Positions 5,452 through 36,876 of a stretch of 42,636 nucleotides of DNA are shown in pieces. Numbering within the stretch: position 1 is the stretch's first letter; the number at the start of each line of letters is the position of its first letter. The translations under genes and the position numbers were made by a program. The notes below the pieces were generated by a model. It did not search any database. It worked only from the letters and a program-made list of their open reading frames with translations, and was not told the DNA's origin. The DNA is from Candidatus Pacearchaeota archaeon (GTDB lineage Archaea; Nanobdellota; Nanobdellia; Pacearchaeales; GW2011-AR1): positions 1 through 42,636 of the forward strand of contig JAGVWR010000016.1 of NCBI GenBank assembly GCA_018304205.1. The letters are read 5' to 3'.

Positions 5452-5452
5452 T

Positions 5453-8096: not shown

Positions 8097-8097
8097 T

Positions 8098-9024: not shown

Positions 9025-9041
9025 TGTATTGTTTTTGTCTT

Positions 9042-12505: not shown

Positions 12506-12512
12506 TTTGGAT

Positions 12513-12788: not shown

Positions 12789-12857
12789 AATTACTTAGAA
12801 AAGTTACATTATATAAACTTTTTTGTGATGAAAATTAGAATATATCTTCACAATATT

Positions 12858-19037: not shown

Positions 19038-19058
19038 GGCGCGGCGCGCTTAACGCGC
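19038..19058 (-). other. GC-only hairpin (GCGCG-5 nt-CGCGC) enclosing the stop codon of the 253-aa ORF
   Basis: A 21-nt tract is 17/21 G/C in a ~30% GC genome. The stem pairs 19044-19048 with 19054-19058, and the stop codon at 19050-19052 lies in the loop. Confidence 0.7.
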
Positions 19059-19811
19059 AACAGAAACTACCCTGCCACTGTCACTCGAGTAAGCGAGATT
19101 ATCGTCGTCCGAGTAAACACTGAGGTTCCAGTACAAGCACAACCTCGAAAGTTGTTGATCATTAGTATACCAAGTTCTGTTTCCATTTTCTTTATCTAAG
19201 CTTTTAGGAAGACCTCTTTCGTCTGTTTCATTAAATCTATATTCATTCCATTTAGTGTCAAATCGATCATCATGAATTACTGTAAATTCACCAGTTGGAA
19301 CTAATCTTAGACCGTATCCATTTTTATCTTGAGACCAAGCTTCAACTTTTAAGCCATAGACCATCGCAGGAACTTCTAAACTATCTACTCTTTGAGCCAA
19401 TTCTTCAAATATTGGTAGATTTATTCGATTACCTTTTTTAGTGCCTCTTAGGATAAGAGCTCTTGTGTCAACATAGTGTTTTCCCCTTGTAGCATCAAAT
19501 ACTTTTGCATCATTTAATTCAGCTAAAAGTCCTGTCCTAGCTCCATGAGGTTCTAAAGTTTGATCAGCAAGTATTTGTAAAAATGGTGTTGACCCAGCAG
19601 GACTGCCATCTATTTCATATAAACCAAAAGAATCATTTCCTCCAAATCCTCCTTGTTCAATACTAGCATTTATCTTAGTTCTGAGAGATTCATATAAATA
19701 TCTACCAAAAACTCCTGAAGGAATGGAATGACTTTCTACAACATTTGTTGATCTTCTAGGCAAGAATACAAATTGTGAAAGATCTATTTCGCTACCTACT
19801 GTTTGAGTCAT
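19050..19811 (-). CDS. Hypothetical soluble protein, 253 aa, compositionally GC-richer than its neighbours
   Basis: ATG start 26 nt downstream of an AAAGCTTTAAATA box. No TM segment, signal peptide or recognisable motif; the 3' end is markedly GC-rich. Confidence 0.6.
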   Translation of the reverse strand: MTQTVGSEIDLSQFVFLPRRSTNVVESHSIPSGVFGRYLYESLRTKINASIEQGGFGGNDSFGLYEIDGSPAGSTPFLQILADQTLEPHGARTGLLAELNDAKVFDATRGKHYVDTRALILRGTKKGNRINLPIFEELAQRVDSLEVPAMVYGLKVEAWSQDKNGYGLRLVPTGEFTVIHDDRFDTKWNEYRFNETDERGLPKSLDKENGNRTWYTNDQQLSRLCLYWNLSVYSDDDNLAYSSDSGRVVSVAR

Positions 19812-21381: not shown

Positions 21382-21918
21382 CTAAGTTTTTATTTCAAGG
21401 AGCTGAATTTTTTCAAAAAAAAGTTTCTCTTCGTCTATGACCTTAAAGGACATTCTTTGTTTTTTTAATAAAGAATCTATATTTCCTCTTGGGGTTAGAG
21501 ATGAAAGAACTAGAAGAATAACTCCTTCCTTTTTTAAGTGATCTTTTGCTTGTTTTAGAAACTTAACTATTATTTCGTCGCCTCTTTTTCCACCAGTCGT
21601 TATTTTTCTTGATTCTTTGTCTTCGCGTTTGTCTCTTGGAAGATAAGGAGGATTAAAAGCAATTACATCAAACTTTTCTTCCTTTTTTATATTTGAGAAT
21701 AGATTTGATTTTACAGTATTGATTTCTTGCTTTTTTAGATCTTTTATTGCTTCTTCATTTATGTCTAATGCAAGAATCGACTTTGCTTCGCATTTTTTTG
21801 CTTCAATTGATTGGATGCCGCTTCCGGTTCCAACATCAAGAAAAATCTTATTTCTTACATAAAACTTTAAATTTCTTTGCAGAAGAAAAGAATCTTCTTT
21901 AGGAACATAAATCATCAT
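21382..21918 (-). CDS. HemK/PrmC/Mtq2-family N5-glutamine methyltransferase
   Basis: SAM motif LDVGTGSGIQSI and substrate motif FNPPYLP. The start overlaps the upstream TGA (ATGA). Confidence 0.8.
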   Translation of the reverse strand: MMIYVPKEDSFLLQRNLKFYVRNKIFLDVGTGSGIQSIEAKKCEAKSILALDINEEAIKDLKKQEINTVKSNLFSNIKKEEKFDVIAFNPPYLPRDKREDKESRKITTGGKRGDEIIVKFLKQAKDHLKKEGVILLVLSSLTPRGNIDSLLKKQRMSFKVIDEEKLFFEKIQLLEIKT

Positions 21919-22397
21919 GCTATCAATTTAAGAAGTTGATCACCAAAGAACACTGCTGCTCCAATTGCTAGAAGAATTAGAACTAAAAGAATAATTAATC
22001 CGATAATTAATATTTTTTTACCTTTACCTGATTTTTGTTGAGTGTTTGGCTGCACCATATAAGGAGGTAGGCTTTGAGCTTGTGGCTGCGGCCTTTGAAT
22101 ATTTACATCTGGCTTTGGCATATCAAAATTATCTGTAATTTTTGGTTTTTCTTGCAATTTATCTAATTTGTCAATTTCGTCTACTCTACTGCCCTGATCT
22201 TGGTCTTCATCTTCTACTTCTTCTCTTTTTATAATGGGACTAGCTAAAATAGATGAAACTCCCTGAGTTAACGACTCTGCTGCAGCTTTAACTTCTGCAG
22301 GATTATAACCTGCATTGATAAACGATCTTGCTGCCGAGTCTAAAGAATAACCCCTTTCTATTGCATTCTTTAACCCTGCGGCTATTTCGTCTCTCAT
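21915..22397 (-). CDS. Tail-anchored membrane protein: small helical N-domain, acidic/Pro-Gln-rich linker, C-terminal TM
   Basis: N-domain is AGLKNAIERGYSLDSAARSFINAGYNPAEV. A low-complexity EDEDQDQ..PQPQAQ linker follows, then TM ILIIGLIILLVLILLAIGAAVFF. Confidence 0.6.
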   Translation of the reverse strand: MRDEIAAGLKNAIERGYSLDSAARSFINAGYNPAEVKAAAESLTQGVSSILASPIIKREEVEDEDQDQGSRVDEIDKLDKLQEKPKITDNFDMPKPDVNIQRPQPQAQSLPPYMVQPNTQQKSGKGKKILIIGLIILLVLILLAIGAAVFFGDQLLKLIA

Positions 22398-23805: not shown

Positions 23806-23911
23806 GACTTAAATTAGAAATGGTAGTTTAAATATATATTTAAAACCCAACCTTTGATATATACTTTATGATATAATTTTGTTTAAATATGAATTAACTA
23901 TTGATTTTTTT

Positions 23912-24406
23912 ATGGAACAAAGAGACATTAAATTAACAGTTGCTAGGTATGTTGTTGCTAATTCTGTGGCTTTGAAGGGAATGCTTACTAAACCTCATTA
24001 TTTTAACTTTGGAGGAAAAAGTTTAGATGAAACTTCTTGTGGAGGATATAAAACCTTTAAAGGGTATGTAGTTGACATTCTAGCAGAGAGAATTGAGGAG
24101 AGAGATTTTTTCGGGTGGTGCATTCCCGATAGTCCTAACCAAGCAGGTAATTGCGGTAATTCAAAATTAATCCCCCTCACTAAACTTCAATATACTAGTA
24201 TTGTTGTAGGAAACTCCGGAAAAATTACTGAAAAACAAGATGGCCTTTTGATAGTAATCCCTCCTATCAAACAAAGGAATTATTTAGAAGATTTGAAGAA
24301 TAAAAGAGATTTTAGAAAATATTCAGAATCTGTAGATTTGGGCAGTAATTTTGGTGAAAAGGTAGATGTCTTTAAAGGAATAGAAAGACTGTTTTCTAAT
24401 AAATAG
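23912..24406 (+). CDS. Hypothetical protein (164 aa)
   Basis: ATG at 23912; the ORF-track start at 23879 is a TTG. No motif recognised. Confidence 0.45.
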   Translation: MEQRDIKLTVARYVVANSVALKGMLTKPHYFNFGGKSLDETSCGGYKTFKGYVVDILAERIEERDFFGWCIPDSPNQAGNCGNSKLIPLTKLQYTSIVVGNSGKITEKQDGLLIVIPPIKQRNYLEDLKNKRDFRKYSESVDLGSNFGEKVDVFKGIERLFSNK

Positions 24407-25593: not shown

Positions 25594-27423
25594 TTATTTA
25601 CCTTTTGAATAAGTCTCAATCGCTTTTCTTACAATTAACTTTCTTTCTTCGAATTGTCTTCTTGGAACTATTGAACCAACAATTTCATTTAAAGTAGTAA
25701 CTCCTTCAAGTACTAAGTCAAGACTTGAATCTAAAAGAGTGGGTAAACCTTTATCTACCATAAGTTTTTGATAAGGAAACATAGATCTTTCTCCTTTTCC
25801 TATTAAATCTCTTTCTTCTTCCCCTATCACCCAAATTTCTGGAACAACTGTTCTACCTTTATAACCAAGGCCATTACAATATGTACAATCTTGCTCTCTG
25901 CTTTTACGTGCTTTATAAAGTTTTAATCCTGAAACTATATCTTCTTTTGCTAATTCGTTTATTTCTGCACTTGCGTCATACTCTTCCTTACAGTCTGGAC
26001 AAAGAACTCTAGCCAGTCTCTGAGCTACAACTCCTGTTAAGCTTGCTTGAATATCAGAATTATCAACGTCAAAGTCACTAAGTCTTGTAAGAACTGAAAT
26101 TGCATCATTGGTGTGCATTGTACTAAATACTAAATGTCCTGTTTTTGCAGCTTCAATTGTTGCTTGTGCTGTTTCTCTATCTCTTGTTTCTCCTACTAAG
26201 ATAATATCTGGATCTTGTCTTAAATATGCCCTTAATGAATTACTAAATCCCCATTCTGCTCTATTATTTACTTGACTCTGATTTATTCCTTCAATTTCCA
26301 TTTCTATTGGATCTTCTATTGTTACAATATTAACGTCTTCTGTATTCAATTCGCTTAACGCTGCGTAAAGAGTTGTCGACTTTCCAGAACCAGTTGGACC
26401 CGTAACAAAGATTAGACCATAAGGATTTTTTATTAAATTTCTAAATTCCTTAAGTGGTCTTTCTTTATGCCCTAATTTTTCAAGCGTAAAAAGCTCTTGC
26501 TTTGAACTTAGCAATCTTATTACCATTTTTTCTCTTCCTCGCGTTGGCATCGTGGCAAGTCTCAGATGATATTCTCTTAATGATTCCTGCGTAGCTAGGA
26601 ACTCTTCTGTAAATTCTATTGAGCCATCTTGGGGTCTTCTCTTTTCATCTATTGCCATTTTTGATTCATTCTTAAATAAGGAAATTACTCTTGGAAGAAT
26701 TTTTTGTGCGTTTCTATAATCTTTTGTAACTAAAGATCCATCTATCCTATATCTTACTCTTGTACTTTTATCTTTCATAGGCTCTAAGTGAATGTCTGAA
26801 GCGTTTAATTTTTCTGCAGTCCTTAATATGGCATTGGCTACTTCTCTTGAATCATTGTCTTCATTTGTTCTTTCCATAACTGTTAACATGTACTCTTTTC
26901 TTGCTGCAGGATCTGCAACTAACTTACTTACAGTATCATATTCTTTTGGAGATAATAGAATAAATTCACGCTTCTCTTTTTCCACATCTTTGTTTAGGAC
27001 TACTATTTGTCTAAAAGAATCTGTGATTTCAAAAGGATCCCTTATTTTAAGATTTTCATTTTCTCTTCCAAAATGAGATCTTATACCATAGAGAGTTGTG
27101 AAGTTATTTTGATAATAAACTAAAGGTTTTATAAGTATTCTATCGAAGTAGGGCATGCGAGAGTAAAGAACCGGTTTGGCATCAATAGGATTTTTATCTA
27201 CTTCTGAAACTAAACTCTCTAAATTTGGAAAGTCTAATTCACCAAGCACCTTTGTTGCTAATTTTTGCTCTTTTGCCAAAGCTGTTCTGAGAGAATCTAA
27301 GTCTGTTAGAGGAATTTGATTTTTGTGTATATTACTGAAAGAACGCATTCCTGGATAAAATCTTGGCATGCCTATTGGATTGATTGAAATATCCTTGCTT
27401 ACTTCATTTGACTTATTAACCAT
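25594..27423 (-). CDS. Type II/IV secretion ATPase of the bacterial PilB/GspE type
   Basis: SDIHLEP..RVRYRIDGSL, Walker A GPTGSGKST, RQDPDIILVGETRD and His box TGHLVFSTMHTNDA. Tetracysteine CPDC..x29..CTYCNGLGYKGR is also present. Confidence 0.85.
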   Translation of the reverse strand: MVNKSNEVSKDISINPIGMPRFYPGMRSFSNIHKNQIPLTDLDSLRTALAKEQKLATKVLGELDFPNLESLVSEVDKNPIDAKPVLYSRMPYFDRILIKPLVYYQNNFTTLYGIRSHFGRENENLKIRDPFEITDSFRQIVVLNKDVEKEKREFILLSPKEYDTVSKLVADPAARKEYMLTVMERTNEDNDSREVANAILRTAEKLNASDIHLEPMKDKSTRVRYRIDGSLVTKDYRNAQKILPRVISLFKNESKMAIDEKRRPQDGSIEFTEEFLATQESLREYHLRLATMPTRGREKMVIRLLSSKQELFTLEKLGHKERPLKEFRNLIKNPYGLIFVTGPTGSGKSTTLYAALSELNTEDVNIVTIEDPIEMEIEGINQSQVNNRAEWGFSNSLRAYLRQDPDIILVGETRDRETAQATIEAAKTGHLVFSTMHTNDAISVLTRLSDFDVDNSDIQASLTGVVAQRLARVLCPDCKEEYDASAEINELAKEDIVSGLKLYKARKSREQDCTYCNGLGYKGRTVVPEIWVIGEEERDLIGKGERSMFPYQKLMVDKGLPTLLDSSLDLVLEGVTTLNEIVGSIVPRRQFEERKLIVRKAIETYSKGK

Positions 27424-27560
27424 CTTTAGCCTGTATAAGTAGTCCTATTTTAATATTTAGGTTATGAGAAAGATAGAAACTAATTTACTATCAATTGATG
27501 AAACATTCTGTTTGAAATTAATTGTTCCTATGTTAAGGATTAAATGAATGATCCTTGCAT

Positions 27561-27581
27561 TAAAGCTTTCAGAAAGCTTTA
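27561..27581. promoter_or_regulatory. Perfect 10+1+10 palindrome TAAAGCTTTC-A-GAAAGCTTTA overlapping the pilin-operon BRE/TATA
   Basis: The right arm continues into CTTTAATTAT (27577-27586), centred ~25 nt upstream of ATG 27607. The left arm is the mirror-image box on the other strand. Confidence 0.55.
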
Positions 27582-27606
27582 ATTATCTCTTTTTGTTAAA
27601 ACTTAA

Positions 27607-28113
27607 ATGAACAAAAGGGGGCAGGATGTTTTTGGGATGTCTTTTGGAATGATTTTTGGAATTATTATTATTGCCGCTATAATTGCTGTAGCATTTTATG
27701 TTATAGCCCACTTCTTGAATTTGCAGAAATGTACAGATACTAGTTTGCTTTATAATGATTTACAAAATGAAGTAGATAAAGCATGGAAATCTACAAATTA
27801 TCAGGATACTTTCTCTGTTAAATTGCCTTCAGGAATTGATTTTGTTTGTTTTGGTTTTCTAAATCAGTCTGCATCAAATTTAAATGATAGAGAAAAACAA
27901 GATTCACTTGATGAAGAATACTCTTCTAGAAGCAAGGATAACTTGTTTTTGTATCCTGCTAAAAAAACATGTAACTTAGATCTCGGAGCTAATAAAATAA
28001 ATCATGTCGAGATTAATGGATTTTTCTGCGTGGAAAAAGAAAACGGAAAACTAGATGTAAAATTATCAAAGAGTAGCAGTGAGGCTCTAGTTAAAATATT
28101 AAATGATAAATAA
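27607..28113 (+). CDS. Prepilin-like protein with class III signal peptide (168 aa)
   Basis: MNKRGQ/DVFGMSFGMIFGIIIIAAIIAV: basic residues, G-Q, then a hydrophobic helix. Cys-containing extracytoplasmic domain. Confidence 0.65.
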   Translation: MNKRGQDVFGMSFGMIFGIIIIAAIIAVAFYVIAHFLNLQKCTDTSLLYNDLQNEVDKAWKSTNYQDTFSVKLPSGIDFVCFGFLNQSASNLNDREKQDSLDEEYSSRSKDNLFLYPAKKTCNLDLGANKINHVEINGFFCVEKENGKLDVKLSKSSSEALVKILNDK

Positions 28114-29053
28114 AAAAGGATTTGAGTTTAGCTTTGCATGGTTATTTGCCATAATTGTTGGAGCAGCCATAATATTCTTCGCTATTTATGCGACAACAAA
28201 TTTAATTTCTACTGAGAGAAGAGTTGGGGATAGTGAAAGTGCAAAACAGATTGGAATACTGCTGAGTCCGATTGAAACAAGTTTGGAAGATGTAAAAACT
28301 GCTGAAATTACATTTCCAACTGAAACAAGACTGCTAAATGATTGTTATGAGAAAGGTAATTTTGGAAGGCAGAATATACAGGTATCAAGTAAACTTGGGG
28401 TTGGAAAAGAGTTTGATTTTCCTGGAGAGCCAAGTACATTTTATAATAAATACATATTTTCAGAAGAGATTGTGCAGGCAAAAAGGATGAAAGTTTTTGC
28501 AAGACCTTTCTCTTTCCCATTTAAAGTGGCAGATCTCACTTTTATTTTTAATGCGGATAGAACTATCTGTTTTATTAATCCTCCTGGTGAAATTGAAGAA
28601 GAGATGACTGACTTAAATCTTGAAAATATAAAGATTGTGGACTCTTTGGACGAATGCGACGAAGGAAGAAAAATTTGTTTTGATCTTGTAAATAGAAATT
28701 GCGATGCAGAGGTATCTACCTTAAGTAATAGTGTTAAGATAGATAATAAAATAATGTATTATGGTGATGATTTTGACAACGCTCTTCTTTATGGAACAAT
28801 ATTTTCAACACCAGAAATTTATGAGTGTCAGTTAAAAAGGTTGATGAAAAGGACGAGTGAACTATCTTTGTTATATCTTGAAAAAACAGAATATTTGACT
28901 GCAAAGGGATGCAGTTCTAATCTTGAGTCTGGTCTAAGAACTCTTGCAGACGGTTCTGCTGCTATTAATAGCTCGTTCGGAATAAGAAATTTGGAAACAA
29001 CAGCAGATGAACTGGGGAGGAGAAATGCACAGCTTATATGCAGATTATTCTAA
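28103..29053 (+). CDS. Prepilin-like protein with class III signal peptide (316 aa)
   Basis: MINKKG/FEFSFAWLFAIIVGAAIIFFAIY, followed by a Cys-rich soluble domain. Overlaps the upstream gene by 11 nt. Confidence 0.65.
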   Translation: MINKKGFEFSFAWLFAIIVGAAIIFFAIYATTNLISTERRVGDSESAKQIGILLSPIETSLEDVKTAEITFPTETRLLNDCYEKGNFGRQNIQVSSKLGVGKEFDFPGEPSTFYNKYIFSEEIVQAKRMKVFARPFSFPFKVADLTFIFNADRTICFINPPGEIEEEMTDLNLENIKIVDSLDECDEGRKICFDLVNRNCDAEVSTLSNSVKIDNKIMYYGDDFDNALLYGTIFSTPEIYECQLKRLMKRTSELSLLYLEKTEYLTAKGCSSNLESGLRTLADGSAAINSSFGIRNLETTADELGRRNAQLICRLF

Positions 29054-29546
29054 AAAAGGACAAGTAAAAATACAGCAAATGGCTTTTGTCTTAGTGGCTA
29101 TAATGATTTTCTTTGGTCTTGTTTCACTTTTTTACTTTTCTATAAGGATCGCTAACCTTGAACAGAGTGCAGTTTCACTAAAAGAGGAAGATGCTAAAGA
29201 ACTTGTAAGAAAACTGTCTTCCTCTCCTGAATTTATTTTTTCTGCTAATGATTGCTCAAATTGCATCGATCTTGATAAAGTTCTAATTTTGGGAGAAAGA
29301 AGAGCATATGAGAATTTCTGGAAACTTGACTATTTAGAGATTGAAAAAGTGGTTTCTAAGACAGATAAACAGTGCAATAGAGGGAATTATCCTGATTGCA
29401 AGTTTATAAAAGTCGTAAATGAAACAAACGACTACGGAAGTGTTGTTTCTGCTTTTGTTTCATTATGTTATTGGGAGAGTAATAAAGGAGGATATGTTAA
29501 ATGCGAGCTTGGGAGAATACATGTGTCTGGGGAGGGAATAAAATGA
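29025..29546 (+). CDS. Prepilin-like protein with class III signal peptide (173 aa)
   Basis: GGAGG lies 5 nt upstream of ATG 29025. Sequence MHSLYADYSKKGQ/VKIQQMAFVLVAIMIFFGLV, with CSNC and paired Cys in the C-domain. Confidence 0.6.
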   Translation: MHSLYADYSKKGQVKIQQMAFVLVAIMIFFGLVSLFYFSIRIANLEQSAVSLKEEDAKELVRKLSSSPEFIFSANDCSNCIDLDKVLILGERRAYENFWKLDYLEIEKVVSKTDKQCNRGNYPDCKFIKVVNETNDYGSVVSAFVSLCYWESNKGGYVKCELGRIHVSGEGIK

Positions 29547-30046
29547 GAATAAATAAGAAAGGACAGGAAGAAATAGTTGGATTTGTACTTGTTATAGTCC
29601 TTGTGGCCGTTATTTTCTTGATATTCGTAGGTATCTTCGTTAGACAGGACTCTAACTCAACAAGACAGGAGAGTATAGAAGTGTACCAGTTTTTAGATTC
29701 ATTTATGCAGCACACAAGCGAATGTGCTATAGGGTTTGAACCTGCTTATTCTAATGTTGGAGAATTAATTCAGCAATGTTACTCTAACTCTGAGTGTACT
29801 ACTGGGAAATCTGCTTGCAGCATTCTGAACGATACTCTTGAAGAAATATTGGATTTAAGCTGGAATGTTGGAGAAGACAGACCAATAAAAGGGTATATCT
29901 TTGAGGCTAAATTTGATTCCAATTTGAGTTCAAATAACATTATTGAGGTTAAAAGGGGTGAATGTGGACAAAGCGTGAGGGGTTCTGAATACTTGATACC
30001 TGCATTTCCCGGAACTATTGTAAGTTCATTTAACTTATGCTTTTAA
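29543..30046 (+). CDS. Prepilin-like protein with class III signal peptide (167 aa)
   Basis: ATGA overlap with the upstream stop and GGAGGG Shine-Dalgarno-like sequence. Sequence MRINKKGQ/EEIVGFVLVIVLVAVIFLIF, with a Cys-rich C-domain. Confidence 0.65.
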   Translation: MRINKKGQEEIVGFVLVIVLVAVIFLIFVGIFVRQDSNSTRQESIEVYQFLDSFMQHTSECAIGFEPAYSNVGELIQQCYSNSECTTGKSACSILNDTLEEILDLSWNVGEDRPIKGYIFEAKFDSNLSSNNIIEVKRGECGQSVRGSEYLIPAFPGTIVSSFNLCF

Positions 30047-30052: not shown

Positions 30053-30412
30053 TTAAATGCTTATTTGGAGGTATATGGAGTCCACAACTATTACTGGTTT
30101 AAGTCTTTCTCTTTTACCTGTTTTTTCTGAAAGCATGTCAATAAATCCAAACCTTTCAAGAAGTTTTATATCTTCTGAAACAGATTTAAAGTCCCTTTTT
30201 AGTATTTTTGCCAGCTCATAAATAGATTTTGGATTTTTTGTTTTAATTGTATGGAGAATTTTTGCTTTTTGGTTACTTAATAATTTTCTTAGTGCTGAAA
30301 GACCTTCAAAATCATATTCTTCCTGCTCTCCTGAGAATCTTTTAAAGAAAGTGTTGAAAGTTCCTGCTTTATCGACGATAGTTATTTCCCTTGTTTTTGT
30401 TCTTTGAGCCAT
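30053..30412 (-). CDS. Winged helix-turn-helix DNA-binding protein (putative transcriptional regulator)
   Basis: KILHTIKTKNPKSIYELAKILKRDFKSVSEDIKLLERFGFI is a typical ArsR/MarR-like wHTH core; 119 aa. Confidence 0.55.
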   Translation of the reverse strand: MAQRTKTREITIVDKAGTFNTFFKRFSGEQEEYDFEGLSALRKLLSNQKAKILHTIKTKNPKSIYELAKILKRDFKSVSEDIKLLERFGFIDMLSEKTGKRERLKPVIVVDSIYLQISI

Positions 30413-30660: not shown

Positions 30661-30740
30661 CTTAACCTTAGGCTTATATGCCATGACGGATCTTAATTGA
30701 TCTCCTCAAAGAGGTGCCCTGCGGGGCTGTCAAGGTTAAG
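30661..30740 (+). promoter_or_regulatory. Structured 5' UTR element of the S-layer mRNA
   Basis: A 9-bp closing stem pairs CTTAACCTT (30661-30669) with AAGGTTAAG (30732-30740). It encloses small GC hairpins (CCTC-aaa-GAGG; GCCC-tgcg-GGGC), with AAGGAGG further downstream. Confidence 0.5.
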
Positions 30741-30768
30741 AGCTGAAAGGAGGTTTTATAAAAAGAGT

Positions 30769-33387
30769 ATGTTAATAAATTTCAGAAAAATTGCATCTGT
30801 GCTAAGTAGCGCATTAATGATTGGTTCTACAGTCGGTTTGGCTGCAGCCGCAAACTATCCAGCTCCTTTCATTTCAGGAGGGAATGCTGATGTTGCTGTT
30901 GTATACGGATCAACTGCTGCAACTACAGACTTAGTTGCTGTTACCGATGTTACTGCTAACTTACAAGCTGCTTTAGCAGCTCAGACTGCAACTACTGGAA
31001 CAACAGGCGGAGGATCTGTTAGTGGAGAGGCCGCACCATTATTTACTAGTGGTACAAAATTGTATATCAACGATAGTTTAAATGCTGTAAAAAGTATTTT
31101 AACTGAGACTGAACTTCCAACATTGTTGGCTGACGGAACTTTCTCAGGAAACGTTGATGCTACATATACGCAATCTTTGATACTTGGAACAAATCCATCA
31201 GTAACATTTGCAAAGCAACCAACAAGTTCAGATGATCCTGAATTTGGTTTGACAATGAGTACAACTCAAGCAAACTATATTTACAATGCAACAGTTACTT
31301 TCAATAAAGTAGTTAATTTCACACATGGAGATTCCAAAGGTGAAGATATCACTTTGTTTGGACAAAGATTTACAATTGCATCCGCAACAGACAATACAAA
31401 TCTTGTATTGTTAAAAACAGCTGAGAAATTAAGTTTGACCAGCAATGATCCTACTGCTGAAGTTACACTAGAAGGCGCAACCTACACGGTTGAATTGGTT
31501 TCCGCATCTGATACTTCTGCGACAGTAAAAATTACAGACAGTAACGGAAATAGCGAAACTAAAGAAATCAATGAGAACGCATCTAAGACGATTAACGGAA
31601 TCACTGTTGCTATTACAAATGCAGACGAAACTAACTTAAAGTTATCTGCTTCAGTAATCGCAGGTGCTGAAAAAGTCACCTTAACAGACGGTAGTTCTGT
31701 AACAATTGGGGAAGATGCTGATGTCATTGATGGAACCTTAGCAACATTCTCAAACGCAAGTATTGCATCCGGAACAACAAAGCTTACATTAAGCGTTGTT
31801 GCACCTAACTCTGATGAAGACGCTATCTTGCCAGGAAAGACGTTTATGGATCCTGTCTTTGGAAGTTTCAAAATAGACTTCGCAGGATTAAATATTCCTC
31901 AGGATAATGATGCGAGAGAAACTTTCAGTTTCAATCCATCAGGAGATGATAAAATGGAACTTACATTTACCGATTATAGAGGTAGTGAAAAGAACGTCCA
32001 ATACGCTAGAAACGTTAGCGGATTCAATGTCTTACAAGTAGATTCAGACGGAAGAAATATGAGCGTATTTGAGGCTGCTAGAACTTACAGAAATGAATAT
32101 ATAGTTGTCGGAAATGAAGATGAAGGATACTTGTTAAGAGTTTCCCAAATCACAAACCAAACAACTGGTTTCACGGACGATAAAATAAGATTCGTTGACG
32201 TAATGTCAGGTGGTACTTATGACGCTACGACTCCTTCTGCCGAAGGAACAACAACTGTTACCGTCGGAGGAAAAGTATATTCTCTAACATATTTGGGAGC
32301 TTCCACTGCTTCAGAAGATACAAGATCGATAAGATTGAACTATCCTGATAGCACAGGAACTGGGGCTGCTGTTGTCTATCCAACAATACAAACTAGCAAA
32401 GGATCTAAATTGGCATTTTACAAGCCAATTAATATTACCTTAGCAAATTGGGATGGAGCAACAAACAACCTTACATCATTAAGATTCCCAGATGGAGATG
32501 GATATACAGACGTAGCTATAGTAGATGGAGCTGCTGGAGGAAACTTTAGCTTTGGAGGTTCAGAAGTAAACTTTACTTCAACAAGAAGCGCTGACGCTGC
32601 AGTTGGTAAATTGAGATATAATGCGACAAGCACTCAAATAAACCAATTGTACTTAAGATTGGAAAATCCAACCACGGGCGTTGTACTTGATGTACCTTCA
32701 GTTATTATCTTTGAAGAAAAAGATGATAACAGTGAACATCAGGCAATAGTAATCCCAATGGCAACCGACTCAACAAGTAGTAAAGTTGGAGTTAGTGCTG
32801 TGGTAAGAACATGGGGTGAGGGAGATTATCCTGCAGTTACCTTAGCAAGTGATAGTGATATCACTGAAGAGGCTGACTTGTGGGGTATAATTGCAACTAT
32901 TGATTCTAATGATGCAGATCAGAAGAAGGCAACAGTTACATATCCAGATGAGCAGATTTATGCTCAGCTTTATGTAGGTGAAGAAAGTTCTGCAATAACT
33001 GCAGGCACTACTTCAAGCGGAACAGTCAAAGAATTGGGAAGTGTTTCAGTTGCAGACTCAGAAGTGAGTTCAGTATCAGGTAAGAACTTGATAGTTATCG
33101 GTGGTAGTTGCGTAAATACAGAAGCTGCTAGTTTGCTAGGAGGCTCATCCGCAATATGCGGCGCTGACTGGGAGACTAAGACCGGAGTTGGATCTGGAAG
33201 CTTCTTGATCGAATCATTTAGTAGATCAGGAGGAAAAGTTGCAACATTAGTTGCAGGATACAATGCCGGAGATACATCAAAAGCTGCTAAGTACTTGACT
33301 ACACAGAAACCTGCTACAGACGCTGGCAAGAAATATGTTGGCTCAGTAGCTACAAGTGCTACACTAGTTGAGACACCATCAGCTTAG
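30769..33387 (+). CDS. S-layer protein (Methanococcales-type S_layer_MJ-like)
   Basis: AAGGAGG precedes ATG 30769. Signal peptide ..STVGLAAAANYPAPFISGGNADVAVVYGS, T/S/A/G-rich body with many N-x-S/T sequons, and C-terminal NLIVIGGSCVNTEAASLL. Confidence 0.8.
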   Translation: MLINFRKIASVLSSALMIGSTVGLAAAANYPAPFISGGNADVAVVYGSTAATTDLVAVTDVTANLQAALAAQTATTGTTGGGSVSGEAAPLFTSGTKLYINDSLNAVKSILTETELPTLLADGTFSGNVDATYTQSLILGTNPSVTFAKQPTSSDDPEFGLTMSTTQANYIYNATVTFNKVVNFTHGDSKGEDITLFGQRFTIASATDNTNLVLLKTAEKLSLTSNDPTAEVTLEGATYTVELVSASDTSATVKITDSNGNSETKEINENASKTINGITVAITNADETNLKLSASVIAGAEKVTLTDGSSVTIGEDADVIDGTLATFSNASIASGTTKLTLSVVAPNSDEDAILPGKTFMDPVFGSFKIDFAGLNIPQDNDARETFSFNPSGDDKMELTFTDYRGSEKNVQYARNVSGFNVLQVDSDGRNMSVFEAARTYRNEYIVVGNEDEGYLLRVSQITNQTTGFTDDKIRFVDVMSGGTYDATTPSAEGTTTVTVGGKVYSLTYLGASTASEDTRSIRLNYPDSTGTGAAVVYPTIQTSKGSKLAFYKPINITLANWDGATNNLTSLRFPDGDGYTDVAIVDGAAGGNFSFGGSEVNFTSTRSADAAVGKLRYNATSTQINQLYLRLENPTTGVVLDVPSVIIFEEKDDNSEHQAIVIPMATDSTSSKVGVSAVVRTWGEGDYPAVTLASDSDITEEADLWGIIATIDSNDADQKKATVTYPDEQIYAQLYVGEESSAITAGTTSSGTVKELGSVSVADSEVSSVSGKNLIVIGGSCVNTEAASLLGGSSAICGADWETKTGVGSGSFLIESFSRSGGKVATLVAGYNAGDTSKAAKYLTTQKPATDAGKKYVGSVATSATLVETPSA

Positions 33388-33525: not shown

Positions 33526-34266
33526 ATGGGAAAGTTAATTGCAATCGGCGGGGGAGAAATAAAAGATTTAGATACCTTCTCAATTGATAAGGAAATTGTT
33601 AAACTAACTGGTAAAAAACACCCTAAAGCTTTGTTTATTCCCACGGCTAGCGGGGATTCAGAAGGATATTGACAAACATTTCAAAAAGTATATGGCGAGA
33701 TGTTGAAGTGTAAGCCTGAAGTACTTTACTTACTAAGAGAGAACCTTACAAGAGAAGAAATTAAGGAAAAGATTCTAGGGGCTGATTTAATTTATGTGGG
33801 TGGGGGAAATACTATGAAAATGCTTAGAACATGGAGAAAGCATGGAGTAGATAAATTACTTGCAAAAGCGTATAAAAATGGAGTTGTTCTATCGGGTCTT
33901 AGTGCTGGAGCTATTTGTTGGTTTGCATATGGTTGTAGCGACTCACGTAGATTTTCTAACCCTGATGATGCCTCTTTTATGAAGATCAAGGGATTGAATC
34001 TGATAAACCTAACTGTAAGCCCACATCATATACGTGAGAAACATAGAGATAATGGTCTTGTTAAATTGATGCGAAATACTTCAGGAGTTGCGGTTGCGCT
34101 TGATGATAACTGTGCTATTGAAATTGTCGATGATAAATATAGGATGCTCGTATCAAAAAAAGGAGTTGGAGCAAAGAAAGTTTATTATTCAAAAGGAAAA
34201 TCATATAAAAATAAAATAATTATTGATACTAAATATAGTCCTATTTCTGATCTATTAAAAAAATAA
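33526..34266 (+). pseudogene. Peptidase S51 (dipeptidase E/cyanophycinase-like) gene interrupted by in-frame TGA at 33670-33672
   Basis: MGKLIAIGGGE..ALFIPTASGDSEGY-TGA-QTFQKVY.. continues in the same frame into ORF 33700-34266. That ORF carries GGGNT, nucleophile LSGLSAGAICW and SPHH. Confidence 0.75.
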
Positions 34267-34418
34267 TTATGTCAAAGTGCTGATGCAGGAAACCTTGCAC
34301 TTTGAACATCCAGAAGTCTCAAACAAACCATGATTTCAAGTCACGGTAAACGAAAAGACTTCTTGATTATAGAATTAACCTGCAATAGGTTTTTAAATAC
34401 CGTATTTGATAATTTGTG

Positions 34419-34979
34419 ATGAAGATTATAGAAAGTGAGGAGACAAAAGAGAAAAGAAGAAAGAGAAACAGTAAATTTATTACGATCTTACTTTTATTCA
34501 TTCTTTTAGCGAGTACTGCGGGGTTTGCTTTTTCATATAACTCTCTAAATGATTCTACTTCTGGATTAAATATAGAAGAAGGAAAGGCAATTTATGACGA
34601 ATCAACTCAACGATGGTATTTGAGATTAAGTGGTCAAGATTTTGTTTTCTATAACTCTCCAGATAGTATGCAAGATGTACAAATAGATTCGACTAAAGTG
34701 CTTGGAGATTATTATGGAAAAACCTTATATATACAAAGTAGTAATGAACTTATATTTAATGAAATAAGCTCCTCTCTTGGAAGATTTAGTTCAAGAGTGC
34801 AAAAGGCATGTTACGGTGAATGTGAAGAGAATTTACCTATAAAAACGTGCACAGATAACTTTATAATCATTAATAACTCAGAAAATAATATAATAAGACA
34901 GGATAATGGGTGCATTTTTATCGATGGAAACATGGAAACCGTTGACGCGTTTTTATATAATACTCTTGGAATAAATTAA
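34419..34979 (+). CDS. Membrane-anchored hypothetical protein (Lys/Arg-rich N-terminus, one TM, Cys-containing ectodomain)
   Basis: KEKRRKRNSKFITILLLFILLASTAGFAF anchor. ATG at 34419 is preferred over the GTG at 34416. Confidence 0.55.
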   Translation: MKIIESEETKEKRRKRNSKFITILLLFILLASTAGFAFSYNSLNDSTSGLNIEEGKAIYDESTQRWYLRLSGQDFVFYNSPDSMQDVQIDSTKVLGDYYGKTLYIQSSNELIFNEISSSLGRFSSRVQKACYGECEENLPIKTCTDNFIIINNSENNIIRQDNGCIFIDGNMETVDAFLYNTLGIN

Positions 34980-34980: not shown

Positions 34981-35670
34981 ATGGAAAAAAAGGCAAGAAA
35001 AAAGGGGAAAACCTCTGGGAAGAAAGAGGAAAAAATAGGAAAAAAGGTTGATAATACAAAACAGCTTTATTGGATATTTGGAACTATGGCCTTCCTAATA
35101 GTTGTACTGCTGATTTCATCTTCTGTTTTTCAAAGCCTAAATAGGTTTGAATATGAAGGACTAATTTTTACTAAAGAAAGGTTTGGAGAAATCCCCGTAT
35201 TTCACCATTATTATTTTTATAACTATAACGGGCAACAGTATAAATTTAATTTATACTTAAGAAATGATCCGAGGTCTAACGAGATTCCTATAAATTCTGA
35301 GATAGAATATCCCTTAGGTAAATTTGCTTATATCAGCACAAATATAACTGGACTTGAAGAATGCCCTCAAACGACACTTGCAGTTGCTACTTTATCTGCT
35401 TTTCTTACAAATAATCAGATAATTCCTAAGGGAGCTACTTTTAACAGAGAAGAGGCTGCAAGTTTAGATGTAGAATATGTTGACTGTGGCACTTACACTG
35501 ACAGAACAACTATATTAATTCAGGATGGAAGCGAAACAAAGATTGAACAAAAAACAGAAATGTGCCATGTTATTACAGTAAGCAATTGTCAAATACTGTT
35601 AGCTATAGAAAAGTTTGAAGTTAAATCTATTTTAGACGCCAGAGAAAGAGCAAGAATAGAAAAGAGTTAG
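34981..35670 (+). CDS. Membrane-anchored hypothetical protein with the same architecture as its upstream neighbour
   Basis: [21 protein letters not shown]-terminus, [22 protein letters not shown], and Cys-containing ectodomain. Confidence 0.55.
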
Positions 35671-36351: not shown

Positions 36352-36876
36352 TCACTTAGATTTAATTTTACTTGATTTATACAGATAAGATAGGTCTGTA
36401 TAGACTGGTATTCCTTTTATCTTGAATATTTTCACATTAATGAACCATATTAAAACTATAAAGATTGTTGATCCTAAATACCAGGTTACTTTATGGGCAA
36501 AGTCAAAGTATGAAAAGCCATTTGTGAATAAAACAGAGAAGACAAAAATTCTAATTATATTAAGTAAGAGGAATGCGGCAGAGATAAACAAGAGACTATA
36601 TGTTCTTTTATTTAACTTCATTGGTGTCGATAAATTTAGGATAAAAAGCAGGTAATATGCTGCACCAGCAATACATGCATCTATTAAGTATATCGAATTC
36701 CCATTAAATGAAATTATGTTTCCTACTGCTGAATCAATAGTATAAAACAAACTAAGCAAAAACAAAACTGGTTTTACTGTTAAAGGAGTAAATATAAAAT
36801 AGAAGATAAACAAATTAGGCAGAGCAATAATCAATAATATCGAATATCTTATTATTAAATTAACATACATTTTCAT
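36352..36876 (-). CDS. Short archaeosortase/exosortase-family protein
   Basis: 174 aa and polytopic. Ordered Cys-Arg-His contexts: LIDACIAGAAYY, LLLNIIRIFVF (N-x-x-R) and FDFAHKVTWYLG. Confidence 0.65.
   Translation of the reverse strand: MKMYVNLIIRYSILLIIALPNLFIFYFIFTPLTVKPVLFLLSLFYTIDSAVGNIISFNGNSIYLIDACIAGAAYYLLFILNLSTPMKLNKRTYSLLFISAAFLLLNIIRIFVFSVLFTNGFSYFDFAHKVTWYLGSTIFIVLIWFINVKIFKIKGIPVYTDLSYLYKSSKIKSK

What the first reader, a model, noticed from the sequence alone, without database searches (positions are those of the whole stretch)
25594..30046. Chimeric type IV filament locus: bacterial-type PilB/GspE ATPase divergent from four archaeal-style (K-K-G-Q) prepilin-like genes, with no platform protein
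The ATPase carries the hallmarks of bacterial PilB/GspE rather than archaeal FlaI/TadA-like motors. These are TGHLVFSTMHTNDA, RQDPDIILVGETRD and the Zn-binding tetracysteine CPDC...CTYCNGLGYKGR. Its first ~200 residues are not recognisable to me. Divergently transcribed are four tightly coupled genes (two overlaps, one ATGA). Their N-termini are class III signal peptides of the archaeal kind: RGQ/D.., KKG/FEF.., KKGQ/V.., KKGQ/E.., each followed by about 20 hydrophobic residues. All four have Cys-rich ectodomains, and none looks like a short major pilin. No PilC/GspF/FlaJ-type polytopic platform protein and no prepilin peptidase lies in the window. The locus abuts a wHTH regulator and the S-layer gene. 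A bacterial motor driving archaeal-type pilins in a probable episymbiont would be an unusual surface or DNA-uptake apparatus.
Basis: partly seen in the sequence, partly recalled or inferred. Interest (0 to 1): 0.75.

Follow-up and report, generated by a model that had tools for sequence, protein, structure and literature searches.

The report
Stray bacterial ATPase beside pilin-like operon
A tiny symbiotic-type archaeon (Pacearchaeota/Woesearchaeota group) has a bacterial-style pilus motor gene next to four pilin-like surface-protein genes, but comparison with relatives shows the two are separate units that only happen to be neighbours in this one lineage.

Summary
The sequence observations hold. 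ORF 25594-27423(-) is an intact bacterial-type PilB/GspE ATPase: GspE E=8e-89 against FlaI E=4e-12. It has a fast-evolving N-domain. Divergent from it lie four translationally coupled genes whose N-termini fit class III (prepilin-like) signals. Position -1 is only G or A in 86/86 homologues, preceded by K/R and followed by a near-invariant hydrophobic helix. The window holds no platform protein and no prepilin peptidase.

The four-gene block is a core operon of Pacearchaeota/Woesearchaeota, with more than 1000 ORF2-family clusters. In 11 related loci it sits in the same place (Pop5 | ORF1-4 | wHTH | S-layer gene), and none of them carries the ATPase. The ATPase subfamily is rare (about 10 clusters). 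It is an orphan at unrelated positions in the other archaeal contigs and in one bacterial contig (PVC-type gene context), and it never lies beside a platform gene or these four genes.

Most likely a horizontally acquired orphan ATPase was inserted at a variable junction next to a native pilin-like operon, which is probably served by archaeal FlaI/J/K-type machinery encoded elsewhere. One hint of local co-option remains: the operon's BRE/TATA promoter element is mirrored as a perfect palindrome facing the ATPase. The four protein families match no Pfam or PDB entry, and ORF2 gives a confident model (pLDDT 91) with no structural match.

The parts
25594..27423 (-). Orphan bacterial-type PilB/GspE-family ATPase, 609 aa. 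aa1-38 predicted disordered. aa39-185 form a lineage-specific alpha/beta N-domain (nt 26869-27309). aa193-581 are the T2SSE core with Walker A, Asp box, Walker B, His box and a tetracysteine motif (nt 25681-26847). aa588-608 form an extra C-terminal helix.
   Evidence: family scores; motif positions; AF2 pLDDT 81.9; Foldseek GspE 4pht 3e-42, PilB/PilF TMt 0.88-0.89, rmsd about 2.7 A; tree; N-domain almost without relatives.
27424..27606 (.). 183-bp divergent intergenic region. It contains a perfect 12+12 nt palindrome ATTAAAGCTTTC-a-GAAAGCTTTAAT at 27559-27583. The right arm is the conserved BRE/TATA-like promoter element of the four-gene operon, about 30 nt upstream of the ORF1 ATG (apparently a leaderless mRNA). 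The left arm is the same element facing the ATPase gene.
   Evidence: palindrome; element GAAA[C/G]CTTTAATTAT conserved upstream of ORF1 in the related loci, where it is not palindromic; single occurrence in the window.
27607..28113 (+). ORF1, 168 aa, pilin-like. Leader MNKRG, then Q and a conserved hydrophobic helix. Ectodomain with 4 Cys.
   Evidence: K-[KR]-[GA]-Q, G/A in 11/11; present in 10 related loci; N-terminal 56 columns homologous to ORF2, hhalign 95%.
28103..29053 (+). ORF2, 316 aa, the large pilin-like member. Leader MINKKG, mature N-terminus F-E-F-S-F-x-W-x-F. Predicted 51-residue N-terminal helix, then beta-sheet domains and a helical C-domain. 8 invariant Cys; ends C-x-L-F.
   Evidence: 1080 homologues, all unnamed, Nanoarchaeota/Pacearchaeota; G/A 55/55, E+2 55/55; AF2 pLDDT 90.7, pTM 0.86, helix 4-54; no structural or sequence match to anything known.
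29025..29546 (+). ORF3, 173 aa from the ATG at 29025, pilin-like. Leader ..YSKKG, mature Q-[LMV]-K-I-Q-[QE]-M-A-F-V-L-V-A. 6 Cys.
   Evidence: G/A 10/10, Q+1 10/10; GGAGG before ATG 29025; 29-nt overlap with ORF2.
29543..30046 (+). ORF4, 167 aa from the ATG at 29543, pilin-like. Leader MRINKKG, mature Q-E-E-I-V-G-F. 6 Cys.
   Evidence: G/A 10/10; Q, E, E 10/10; ATGA overlap with ORF3; 2 of 10 family members give a weak Pilin_N PF07790 hit, E 0.02.
30053..30412 (-). HVO_A0114-family winged-helix regulator. It is tail-to-tail with ORF4 and divergent from the S-layer gene. Its position after the four-gene block is conserved in all related loci.
   Evidence: PF25212, 2.2e-18; 53-76% identical in 9 loci.
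30697..33387 (+). S-layer protein gene (896 aa, signal peptide, no C-terminal anchor), the conserved downstream neighbour of the block.
   Evidence: S_layer_C; synteny; C-terminus without a TM segment.

Best explanation
Two independent units are juxtaposed in this one lineage.

(1) ORF1-4 are a native, vertically inherited operon of Pacearchaeota/Woesearchaeota-type DPANN archaea. It encodes four different type IV pilin-like (class III signal peptide) envelope proteins with disulfide-rich ectodomains.
- Inferred mechanism: a FlaK/PibD-type peptidase cuts after the invariant G/A. The conserved hydrophobic N-helices then let the four proteins assemble in fixed stoichiometry (translational coupling) into a short hetero-oligomeric, pseudopilus-like or minor-pilin-like complex in the space between membrane and S-layer.
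- The archaeal FlaI/FlaJ-type machinery that serves it is encoded elsewhere.
- The function is probably cell-envelope or attachment related.

(2) The ATPase is a horizontally acquired member of a small, distinct subfamily of bacterial PilB/GspE ATPases. This subfamily occurs as an orphan gene in a few DPANN archaea and in at least one bacterial contig with PVC-type neighbours.
- In this lineage it was inserted at the variable Pop5|ORF1 junction.
- It is probably an active hexameric motor, since all catalytic motifs are intact, but its partner is unknown.

Shown: the family identities, the synteny, the rarity of the ATPase and the conservation of the N-termini. Inferred: cleavage, assembly, the machinery used and the function.
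For: ATPase type.

Distinct subfamily:
- The core is 50% identical to DPANN-type relatives, 47% to ordinary Clostridia/Caldiserica PilB and 38% to the Patescibacteria double ATPases.
- In an NJ tree the window, the DPANN-type proteins and P0043/44 (P0044 sits in the bacterial, PVC-type contig) form one clade in 46/60 bootstraps. An archaea-only clade appears in 0/60, and a clade with the Patescibacteria double ATPases in 1/60.

Orphan status: there is no T2SSF/FlaJ platform, no pilin-like block and no A24 peptidase in the window or in L002/3, L004, L005, L017, L018.

The block is core and independent of the ATPase:
- 1080 ORF2-family clusters against about 10 ATPase-subfamily clusters.
- The order Pop5-ORF1-ORF2-ORF3-ORF4-wHTH-S-layer is conserved in the related loci, with no ATPase in 11/11.
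- Other lineages have different insertions at the same or nearby junctions.
- A Peptidase_S51 gene is likewise inserted only in this lineage.

Pilin-like nature:
- Position -1 is G/A only in 55/55, 11/11, 10/10 and 10/10 sequences, with K/R at -2/-3 and Q (F in ORF2) at +1.
- The following ~13 residues are the best-conserved part of each protein.
- ORF2 has a 51-residue N-helix followed by beta-sheet.
- No other ORF in the window shares this N-terminus.

Native machinery: most Woesearchaeota MAGs carry flaB/H/I/J/K (PMC11606122).
Against: - The rest of this genome could not be searched, so a FlaI/FlaJ/FlaK set in this organism is assumed from relatives, not shown.
- The palindrome at 27559-27583 duplicates the operon's BRE/TATA element towards the ATPase. 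That would co-regulate both units and hints at local co-option.
- No homology of ORF1-4 to any known pilin family was found. Foldseek finds nothing for ORF2. The strict FlaFind pattern is not met.
- Synteny in this region is generally high among these genomes, so linkage of the block to the S-layer gene may be historical rather than functional.
- The rarity of the ATPase rests on a word-indexed search that scored only 8000 candidates.
Confidence: 0.6

Rival explanations
1. Functional hybrid. In this lineage the acquired bacterial-type PilB/GspE motor has been recruited to assemble or retract a filament or pseudopilus built from the ORF1-4 pilin-like proteins, using a platform protein encoded elsewhere (for example an archaeal FlaJ/TadC-type protein).
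For: - Divergent adjacency with a 183-bp shared control region. The operon's BRE/TATA element is mirrored as a perfect 12+12 palindrome facing the ATPase.
- All catalytic motifs are intact.
- The same arrangement appears in an independent assembly (L001).
- Conserved acidic residues near the predicted mature N-termini (E+2 in ORF2; E+2 and E+3 in ORF4) recall the Glu5 of bacterial pilins.
Against: - The adjacency is unique: 0/11 block-bearing loci have the ATPase, and 0/5 contexts of close ATPase relatives plus 0/80 other PilB loci have the block.
- The block exists in about 100 times more lineages than the ATPase, so it cannot depend on it.
- No platform lies near any member of the ATPase subfamily.
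- The ATPase N-domain, the usual partner-binding part, evolves very fast.
Confidence: 0.12
2. ORF1-4 are not pilins. They are uncleaved type II signal-anchor membrane proteins that form an S-layer-associated complex (an S-layer anchor or biogenesis factors, working like SlaB). The K-K-G motif is only the positive-inside flank of the anchor. The ATPase is unrelated.
For: - No homology to any pilin family, and the strict FlaFind pattern fails.
- Foldseek finds no pilin-like match for ORF2.
- The position next to the wHTH and S-layer genes is conserved, and the S-layer protein has no membrane anchor of its own.
- No major pilin, peptidase or assembly genes lie in any of the 11 loci.
- Neighbouring conserved N-anchored Cys proteins (34416-34979, 34981-35670) show that anchored envelope proteins are common in this island.
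Against: - Exclusive G/A at one fixed position in 86/86 sequences of four different families, Q at +1 in three of them, and near-invariance of the first ~20 mature residues. Ordinary signal anchors are normally the least conserved part of a protein.
- The neighbouring anchored proteins lack the motif.
- ORF2's N-helix is 51 residues long, as in pilins, not about 22.
- 2 of 10 ORF4 relatives touch the Pilin_N profile.
Confidence: 0.22
3. Assembly artefact: a bacterial PilB gene was joined to an archaeal contig by mis-assembly or binning contamination.
For: The ATPase core is 47% identical to ordinary bacterial PilB, and the insertion is seen only in this lineage.
Against: - The gene lies inside the contig, one base from the Pop5 stop codon.
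- It is found in a second assembly with identical flanks (L001).
- Its GC content matches the surroundings, 0.32.
- Its closest relatives sit in four other unambiguously archaeal contexts, next to Spt4, Nop/fibrillarin, L37ae and FtsZ/SepF genes.
Confidence: 0.02

Closest known systems
Bacterial type II secretion / type IVa pilus assembly ATPases GspE, PilB and PilF (Pfam PF00437; NCBIfam TIGR02533, TIGR02538)
   Same: - Full-length T2SSE core with Walker A, Asp box, Walker B, His box and the tetracysteine Zn motif.
- 42-47% identity to bacterial proteins.
- The predicted core superposes on PilB/PilF at TMt 0.88-0.89, rmsd about 2.7 A.
   Different: - Encoded in an archaeon.
- Scores are below the NCBIfam equivalog cut-offs: 391 against 630 and 371 against 676.
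- The N-terminal region is not a recognisable T2SSE_N/GSPII domain by sequence and has almost no relatives.
- It has an extra C-terminal helix.
- It is never next to a PilC/GspF platform, a PilM/GspL partner or a PilD peptidase.
- It belongs to a separate small clade shared by DPANN archaea and P0043/P0044, of which P0044 sits in a bacterial, PVC-type contig.
Archaeal type IV filament ATPases (FlaI/ArlI and archaeal PilB; arCOG01817-01819, arCOG05609)
   Same: Same secretion-ATPase superfamily, and the expected kind of motor for class III signal peptide proteins in an archaeon (Makarova 2016, PMC4858521; 2026 preprint 10.64898/2026.04.22.720090).
   Different: The window ATPase matches FlaI only around the P-loop (residues 338-454, E 4e-12, 64 bits) against 300-390 bits for GspE/PilB. 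It is not a member of this group.
Sets of accessory or minor pilin-like proteins: bacterial minor (pseudo)pilin quartets (GspH-I-J-K, FimU-PilVWX, ComGD-G) and archaeal pilin-like envelope proteins (bindosome BasABC, FlaF/FlaG, Epd minor pilins). This comparison rests on my own knowledge, not on a test.
   Same: - Four different co-transcribed, translationally coupled genes.
- Each has a short basic leader ending in G/A and a conserved hydrophobic N-helix.
- One member is much larger (316 aa), and there is no short major subunit in the operon.
- The genes lie next to envelope (S-layer) genes.
   Different: - No sequence or structural homology to any of them.
- Residues +2 to +5 are polar, unlike typical archaeal pilins.
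- No assembly genes lie in the locus in any of the 11 relatives.
- Cleavage and assembly are untested.

Membership tests
Bacterial PilB/GspE assembly ATPases | Full-length match to the T2SSE core, scoring far above FlaI, TadA, VirB11 and PilT models | tested here: met
   Pfam T2SSE 365.7 bits over profile positions 9-368 of 370. NCBIfam: GspE 391, PilB 371, PilT 179, FlaI 64, TadA-type 46 bits. PDB: GspE 7.8e-89 against FlaI 3.9e-12.
Bacterial PilB/GspE assembly ATPases | Walker A, Asp box, Walker B and His box intact | tested here: met
   aa342-350, 366-374, 402-415 and 428-441. These positions are invariant across the 11-member subfamily alignment.
Bacterial PilB/GspE assembly ATPases | Tetracysteine (Zn) motif in the C-terminal domain | tested here: met
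   CPDC at 475-478 and CTYC at 513-516. The motif is lost in subfamily members P0043 and P0044.
Bacterial PilB/GspE assembly ATPases | Reaches the curated equivalog cut-off of GspE (TIGR02533) or PilB (TIGR02538) | tested here: not met
   391 bits against a cut-off of 630, and 371 against 676.
Bacterial PilB/GspE assembly ATPases | N-terminal T2SSE_N / GSPII (N1E) partner-binding domain | tested here: inconclusive
   No Pfam hit. hhalign of the subfamily N-domain against bacterial PilB N-regions gives probability 0.3%. AF2 folds aa39-185 as an alpha/beta domain with pLDDT mostly in the 80s, and Foldseek aligns 497 columns with GspE 4pht against about 400 for core-only hits.
Bacterial PilB/GspE assembly ATPases | Encoded with a PilC/GspF-type platform protein | tested here: not met
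   None in the window or within 10 kb in L002/3, L004, L005, L017 or L018. The whole genome was not searchable.
Archaeal FlaI / archaeal PilB ATPases | Best match to FlaI/archaeal secretion ATPase models over the full length | tested here: not met
   FlaI model 64 bits (cut-off 550), matching residues 338-449 only. PDB FlaI E 3.9e-12 over 338-454.
Type IV pilin-like proteins (class III signal peptide) | Short basic leader ending in [KR]-[GA] at a fixed position directly before the hydrophobic segment | tested here: met
   G/A in 55/55 (ORF2), 11/11 (ORF1), 10/10 (ORF3) and 10/10 (ORF4), with K/R at -2/-3.
Type IV pilin-like proteins (class III signal peptide) | About 20 hydrophobic residues after the cleavage site, and the N-terminal segment is the most conserved part of the protein | tested here: met
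   invariant-column lists.
Type IV pilin-like proteins (class III signal peptide) | Strict FlaFind pattern [KRDE][GA][ALIFQMVED][ILMVTAS]x3 (pattern recalled from Szabo et al. 2007, my own knowledge) | tested here: not met
   RGQDVF, KGFEFS, KGQVKI and KGQEEI all fail at +2 or +3 (sequences).
Type IV pilin-like proteins (class III signal peptide) | Long (~50 residue) N-terminal alpha-helix packed against a beta-sheet head | tested here: inconclusive
   ORF2: helix 4-54 followed by beta-strands, pLDDT 90.7, but Foldseek gives no match to any pilin structure. ORF1, ORF3 and ORF4 were not modelled because no admissible alignment was available.
Type IV pilin-like proteins (class III signal peptide) | Sequence homology to a described pilin family (Pfam Pilin_N, Class_IIIsignal, or PDB pilins) | tested here: not met
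   Profiles of all four families against PDB sequences gave nothing significant. Pfam member scans gave only 2 of 10 ORF4 relatives with Pilin_N at E 0.02.
Type IV pilin-like proteins (class III signal peptide) | Cleaved by a prepilin peptidase (PibD/FlaK/EppA) present in the genome | not testable with these tools
   No peptidase in the window. Relatives generally carry flaK (PMC11606122). The genome of this organism could not be searched.
Complete type IV filament locus (ATPase + platform + pilins + peptidase) | Co-localised and co-conserved ATPase, platform and pilin genes | tested here: not met
   ATPase and block are adjacent only in this organism. 0/11 and 0/85 in the reciprocal context tests. 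No platform anywhere.

The most novel reading that the evidence does not exclude
In this Pacearchaeota-type lineage a horizontally acquired bacterial PilB/GspE motor has been wired, through a mirrored copy of the operon's promoter element, to a DPANN-wide quartet of pilin-like proteins. It would work with an archaeal (FlaJ-type) or still unknown platform. That would make a genuine cross-domain hybrid type IV filament machine, used for host attachment or DNA uptake.
Probability: 0.1. Interest if true: 0.8.

Novelty: new variant of a known kind. Interest (0 to 1): 0.4.

Why it matters
Two things survive the check.

First, a four-gene operon of class III-signal, disulfide-rich envelope proteins is conserved next to the S-layer gene in more than a thousand Pacearchaeota/Woesearchaeota-type sequences.
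- It has no Pfam family, no name and no structural relative, even though the ORF2 model is confident.
- For organisms thought to live attached to hosts, a universally kept pilin-like complex is a concrete candidate for the attachment or envelope apparatus. It can be tested by proteomics and cryo-ET.

Second, a small clade of bacterial-type PilB/GspE ATPases exists as orphan genes in DPANN archaea.
- Censuses of archaeal type IV filament ATPases list only FlaI-like arCOGs (PMC4858521; 10.64898/2026.04.22.720090).
- One groundwater study states that type IV pilus components are missing from DPANN genomes (10.1101/2020.05.14.094862).
- What a PilB motor does without a neighbouring platform is an open question.

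The more striking claim, a chimeric machine, is not supported, so the finding is of moderate rather than high interest.

Tried and rejected
- N-terminal 195 aa of the ATPase. The word-indexed search returned nothing, not even the identical protein. Exhaustive phmmer gave 2 weak hits. hhalign against bacterial PilB N-regions was not significant. The domain therefore stays unclassified by sequence.
- Origin from Patescibacteria (CPR). The top-scoring 1000-aa hits are tandem double ATPases whose bit scores are the sum of two domains. Per domain they are only 38% identical, and they grouped with the window clade in 1/60 bootstraps. Rejected.
- Homology of ORF1-4 to known pilins or any solved protein. 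Profile searches against PDB sequences, Pfam scans of every family member, and Foldseek of the ORF2 model against PDB and BFVD were all negative.
- GspK-like or minor-pilin fold for ORF2. Not supported by Foldseek (best E 0.12, TM about 0.1).
- Metagenome scan with the ATPase. It gave 80 loci, nearly all ordinary bacterial PilB matched in the core only, and none with ORF1-4.
- Signs of a mobile element around the ATPase. There is no tRNA in the window and no convincing flanking repeats.
- The palindrome as a repeated operator. It occurs only once in the window, and it is not palindromic in relatives.
- A prepilin peptidase hidden among the 5-TM ORFs. The 174-aa 5-TM protein is a pacearchaeosortase, and the 285-aa 7-TM protein is SpoIIM-like.
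- Structure prediction of ORF1, ORF3 and ORF4 was not possible with an alignment.

Full report
**Organism and setting**

The window has 31-35% GC. It encodes archaeal markers: RNase P Pop5, an aRNase J-type beta-CASP nuclease, prefoldin, AglB/STT3 and an S-layer protein. It also carries a pacearchaeosortase (NF033505, 208 bits) beside its PACE-CTERM substrate (NF033506, 526 bits). Related loci come from MAGs named Nanoarchaeota, Woesearchaeota and Pacearchaeota. The source is therefore a Pacearchaeota/Woesearchaeota-type DPANN archaeon. An independent ENA assembly (L001, 13.3 kb) contains the same region at 99-100% identity.

**Observation check: the ATPase**

- ORF 25594-27423(-) encodes 609 aa.
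- Residues 193-581 match Pfam T2SSE end to end (2.7e-109).
- Against solved structures the best sequence matches are GspE (7.8e-89) and PilF/PilB (about 1e-83 to 1e-73), then BfpD and PilT (about 1e-32). FlaI reaches only 3.9e-12, around the P-loop.
- NCBIfam gives GspE 391 bits, PilB 371, TfpB 357, ComGA 251, PilT 179, FlaI 64 and TadA-type 46. None reaches an equivalog cut-off.
- An AlphaFold2 model built on the 11-member subfamily alignment has pLDDT 81.9. Its core superposes on PilB/PilF at TMt 0.88-0.89, rmsd about 2.7 A.

**The N-terminus of the ATPase**

- Residues 1-38 are predicted disordered.
- Residues 39-185 fold as an alpha/beta domain with pLDDT mostly in the 80s.
- By sequence this domain matches no Pfam or NCBIfam model.
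- It has only two weak relatives among 1.84 billion representatives.
- It is not significantly similar to the T2SSE_N regions of bacterial PilB (hhalign probability 0.3%).
- Foldseek aligns about 100 more columns with full-length GspE (4pht, 497 columns) than with core-only structures. A degenerate N1E-like domain is therefore possible but not shown.

**Observation check: the four genes**

- ORF1 is 27607-28113 and ORF2 is 28103-29053.
- ORF3's real start is the ATG at 29025, preceded by GGAGG; it ends at 29546.
- ORF4's real start is the ATG at 29543, also preceded by an SD-like run; it ends at 30046.
- The overlaps are 11 nt, 29 nt and ATGA.
- Each protein begins with a short basic leader ending in K/R-G, followed by a hydrophobic helix.
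- A six-frame scan found no other ORF in the 42.6 kb with this kind of N-terminus, so there is no short major pilin.
- All large polytopic membrane ORFs belong to other families (SpoIIM, DedA/VTT, two PMT_2, a flippase, GT4, AglB and the sortase). No platform protein and no A24 peptidase lies in the window.

**Are the N-termini class III signals?**

I collected homologues of all four proteins. For ORF2 there were 56 from the protein database. For ORF1, ORF3 and ORF4 there were 10-11 each, taken from related loci.

- In every family the residue before the hydrophobic stretch is only G or A: 55/55, 11/11, 10/10 and 10/10.
- It is preceded by K/R-K/R.
- It is followed by Q (10/10, 10/10, 9/11), or by F in ORF2 (49/55).
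- The next ~13 residues are almost invariant.
  - ORF2: F-E-F-S-F-x-W-x-F-A-I-I-V.
  - ORF3: Q-L-K-I-Q-Q/E-M-A-F-V-L-V-A.
  - ORF4: Q-E-E-I-V-G-F.
- The N-terminus is thus the best-conserved part of each protein. That is characteristic of type IV pilin-like proteins and the opposite of ordinary signal anchors.
- Neighbouring conserved anchored proteins (34416-34979, 34981-35670) lack the motif.
- hhalign links the N-terminal 56 columns of ORF1 and ORF2 at 95% probability.
- ORF2, modelled with a 56-sequence alignment, gives pLDDT 90.7 and pTM 0.86. It has one continuous helix over residues 4-54, then beta-sheet domains and a helical C-domain. A ~50-residue first helix is the pilin hallmark.

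Against this:
- The strict FlaFind pattern fails for all four, because +2 to +5 are polar.
- No family profile hits any pilin in the PDB.
- Pfam scans of all members give only a weak Pilin_N hit in 2 of 10 ORF4 relatives.
- Foldseek finds nothing for the ORF2 model in the PDB or BFVD.

I rate "pilin-like, cleaved class III signal" at roughly 0.75, and "uncleaved anchors" as the main alternative.

**The decisive test: conservation of the arrangement**

Starting from the four-gene block:
- ORF2 has 1080 homologous clusters, 45-57% identical over the full length. All are unnamed, and the named sources are Nanoarchaeota/Pacearchaeota.
- Eleven related loci (L006-L016) were examined by blastp with all window proteins.
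- Wherever the contig is long enough, the order is (RNase J)-trypsin-like protease-Pop5-ORF1-ORF2-ORF3-ORF4, then the wHTH on the opposite strand, then the S-layer gene. After that come the two anchored paralogues, DedA/VTT, the pacearchaeosortase and the PACE-CTERM protein.
- All four genes are present in 8 loci. L012 has ORF2-4 but no detectable ORF1. L010 and L015 break off within ORF2.
- The wHTH and S-layer genes follow in all 9 loci that reach that far.
- None of the 11 loci has a T2SSE ATPase.

Starting from the ATPase:
- Its closest full-length relatives (P0011, P0015, P0039, P0041, P0044; 37-45% identical overall, 45-51% in the core) lie in five unrelated contexts. These are: between VTT and a CCA-adding-enzyme-like (tRNA nucleotidyltransferase) gene; between FKBP and IF5A; next to Nop/fibrillarin; after giant surface proteins; and in a bacterial contig with PSCyt1/DUF1501/sulfatase (PVC-type) neighbours.
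- None of these contexts has a platform gene or ORF1-4 homologues.
- Eighty further PilB-like metagenome loci also lack ORF1-4.
- Only about 10 clusters outscore generic bacterial PilB in the ATPase search, against 1080 for ORF2.

The four-gene block is therefore core and vertically inherited, and the ATPase is rare and mobile. Their adjacency is specific to this organism. The Pop5|ORF1 junction and nearby junctions take other insertions elsewhere:
- a 197-aa ORF in L008;
- an LMW phosphatase gene between ORF1 and ORF2 in L006/L007;
- a nucleotidyltransferase gene and a second unnamed ORF (possibly a toxin-antitoxin pair) between ORF3 and ORF4 in L006.

A Peptidase_S51 gene after the S-layer gene is likewise unique to the window.

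**Origin of the ATPase**

- In the core it is 50% identical to DPANN-type relatives, 47% to ordinary Clostridia/Caldiserica PilB, and 38% to each half of the Patescibacteria double ATPases.
- I built a neighbour-joining tree of 372 core columns, with PilT-like halves as outgroup.
- The window protein, the DPANN-type proteins and P0043/P0044 form one clade in 46/60 bootstraps (P0044 is the one in the bacterial, PVC-type contig).
- Archaea alone are never monophyletic (0/60).
- A sister relation to the Patescibacteria double ATPases is not supported (1/60).
- This is a small, distinct orphan subfamily of PilB/GspE that has moved between domains.

**A residual link between the two units**

Upstream of ORF1, all relatives share a BRE/TATA-like element, GAAA[C/G]CTTTAATTAT, about 30 nt before the ATG. 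This suggests a leaderless mRNA. In the window this element is the right arm of a perfect 12+12 palindrome, ATTAAAGCTTTC-a-GAAAGCTTTAAT, at 27559-27583. An identical element therefore faces the ATPase gene, about 135 nt from its start codon. That would give both units the same core promoter. It is the only positive evidence for co-option, and it is an inference from sequence.

**Most likely mechanism**

Two units are involved.

(1) ORF1-4 are a native quartet of pilin-like envelope proteins.
- Inferred steps: the leader is removed after G/A by a FlaK/PibD-type peptidase. The N-helices then bundle into a defined hetero-oligomer, with stoichiometry set by translational coupling. The complex would resemble a pseudopilus or a minor-pilin tip complex and sit under or within the S-layer.
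- It would be handled by FlaI/FlaJ-type machinery encoded elsewhere. Woesearchaeota MAGs generally carry flaB/H/I/J/K (PMC11606122).

(2) The ATPase is an acquired orphan motor with an unknown partner. Confidence in this two-unit model is 0.6.

Rivals:
- uncleaved S-layer-associated anchors, 0.22;
- true hybrid machine, 0.12;
- assembly artefact, 0.02.

**Comparison with what is known, and novelty**

- The ATPase works like, and belongs to the superfamily of, PilB/GspE. However, it fails the equivalog cut-offs, lacks a recognisable N1/T2SSE_N domain and lacks the platform neighbourhood. I file it as a divergent new subfamily, not as GspE or PilB proper.
- Censuses of archaeal type IV filament systems list only FlaI-like arCOGs (PMC4858521; 10.64898/2026.04.22.720090). 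One groundwater study states that type IV pilus components are missing in DPANN genomes. So the ATPase is little known, but it is an HGT curiosity until a partner is found.
- The four families are new pilin-like families without homologues in Pfam or the PDB.
- Overall this is a new variant of a known kind.

Noticed in passing
window 36352-36876 (-) and 36918-38606 (-): A pacearchaeosortase (NF033505, 208 bits, 5 TM) lies directly beside its presumed substrate, a 562-aa PACE-CTERM 'putative S-layer protein' (NF033506, 526 bits; C-terminal TM plus RISRK tail). The pair is conserved in all related loci that extend that far. A literature search for 'pacearchaeosortase' found no paper.
   Followed up: partly
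window 34416-34979 (+) and 34981-35670 (+): Two conserved N-anchored, Cys-containing proteins downstream of the S-layer gene are distant paralogues of each other (hhalign 94% over 157 columns). They have no family assignment. They lack the K-G-Q motif of ORF1-4.
   Followed up: partly
window 33700-34266 (+): A Peptidase_S51 (PepE/cyanophycinase-like) gene that matches only profile positions 60-205 sits between the S-layer gene and the anchored paralogues. It is absent at this place in the related loci. This is a second lineage-specific insertion in the same conserved envelope island.
   Followed up: partly
L006 9603-10004 and L007 9594-10004: In two relatives a low-molecular-weight phosphotyrosine phosphatase/ArsC-type gene (LMWPc) is inserted between ORF1 and ORF2, with overlapping stop and start codons. 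It is therefore translationally coupled into the pilin-like operon.
   Followed up: no
L006 11766-12712; L008 8712-9305 (-): Other insertions occur in or beside the block. In L006 a nucleotidyltransferase (NTP_transf_2) gene and a 140-aa ORF without a family hit, possibly a toxin-antitoxin pair, lie between ORF3 and ORF4. In L008 an unassigned 197-aa ORF lies at the same Pop5|ORF1 junction where the window has the ATPase.
   Followed up: partly
window 27559-27583: A perfect 12+12 nt palindrome, ATTAAAGCTTTC-a-GAAAGCTTTAAT, lies over the conserved BRE/TATA-like element of ORF1. It mirrors the element towards the ATPase gene. It is not palindromic in relatives.
   Followed up: partly
window 3202-17796: A large protein-glycosylation cluster lies upstream: two PMT_2/GT39-like membrane glycosyltransferases, a polysaccharide flippase, a GT4 (AglH/MraY-like) enzyme, a 903-aa AglB/STT3 and several soluble glycosyltransferase-like ORFs. 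Together with the S-layer, sortase and pilin-like genes it forms a roughly 35-kb cell-envelope region.
   Followed up: partly
proteins P0002-P0016 and P0018-P0037 (homologue list): Patescibacteria encode ~1000-aa proteins made of two tandem PilB-like ATPase cores. Another large group (~968-980 aa) appears to fuse a PilB-like core to a second, more weakly matching secretion-ATPase core that I took to be PilT-like (34% identity to the query) and used as tree outgroup. Such fusions inflate whole-protein bit scores in homology lists.
   Followed up: partly
L017 10001-11803 (P0044) and P0043: Two members of the same orphan ATPase subfamily have lost all four cysteines of the Zn motif. P0044 lies in a bacterial contig with PVC-type neighbours (PSCyt1, DUF1501, sulfatase), again without a platform gene. 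P0043's own context was not examined.
   Followed up: partly
window 21915-22397 (-), 23879-24406 (+), 19050-19811 (-): Three ORFs have no family assignment. The first (160 aa) has a C-terminal TM anchor. Called genes of 133-139 aa occupy the same position in L006 and L008, but their homology was not tested. The second (175 aa) was found only in L001, the same organism. They were not analysed further.
   Followed up: no
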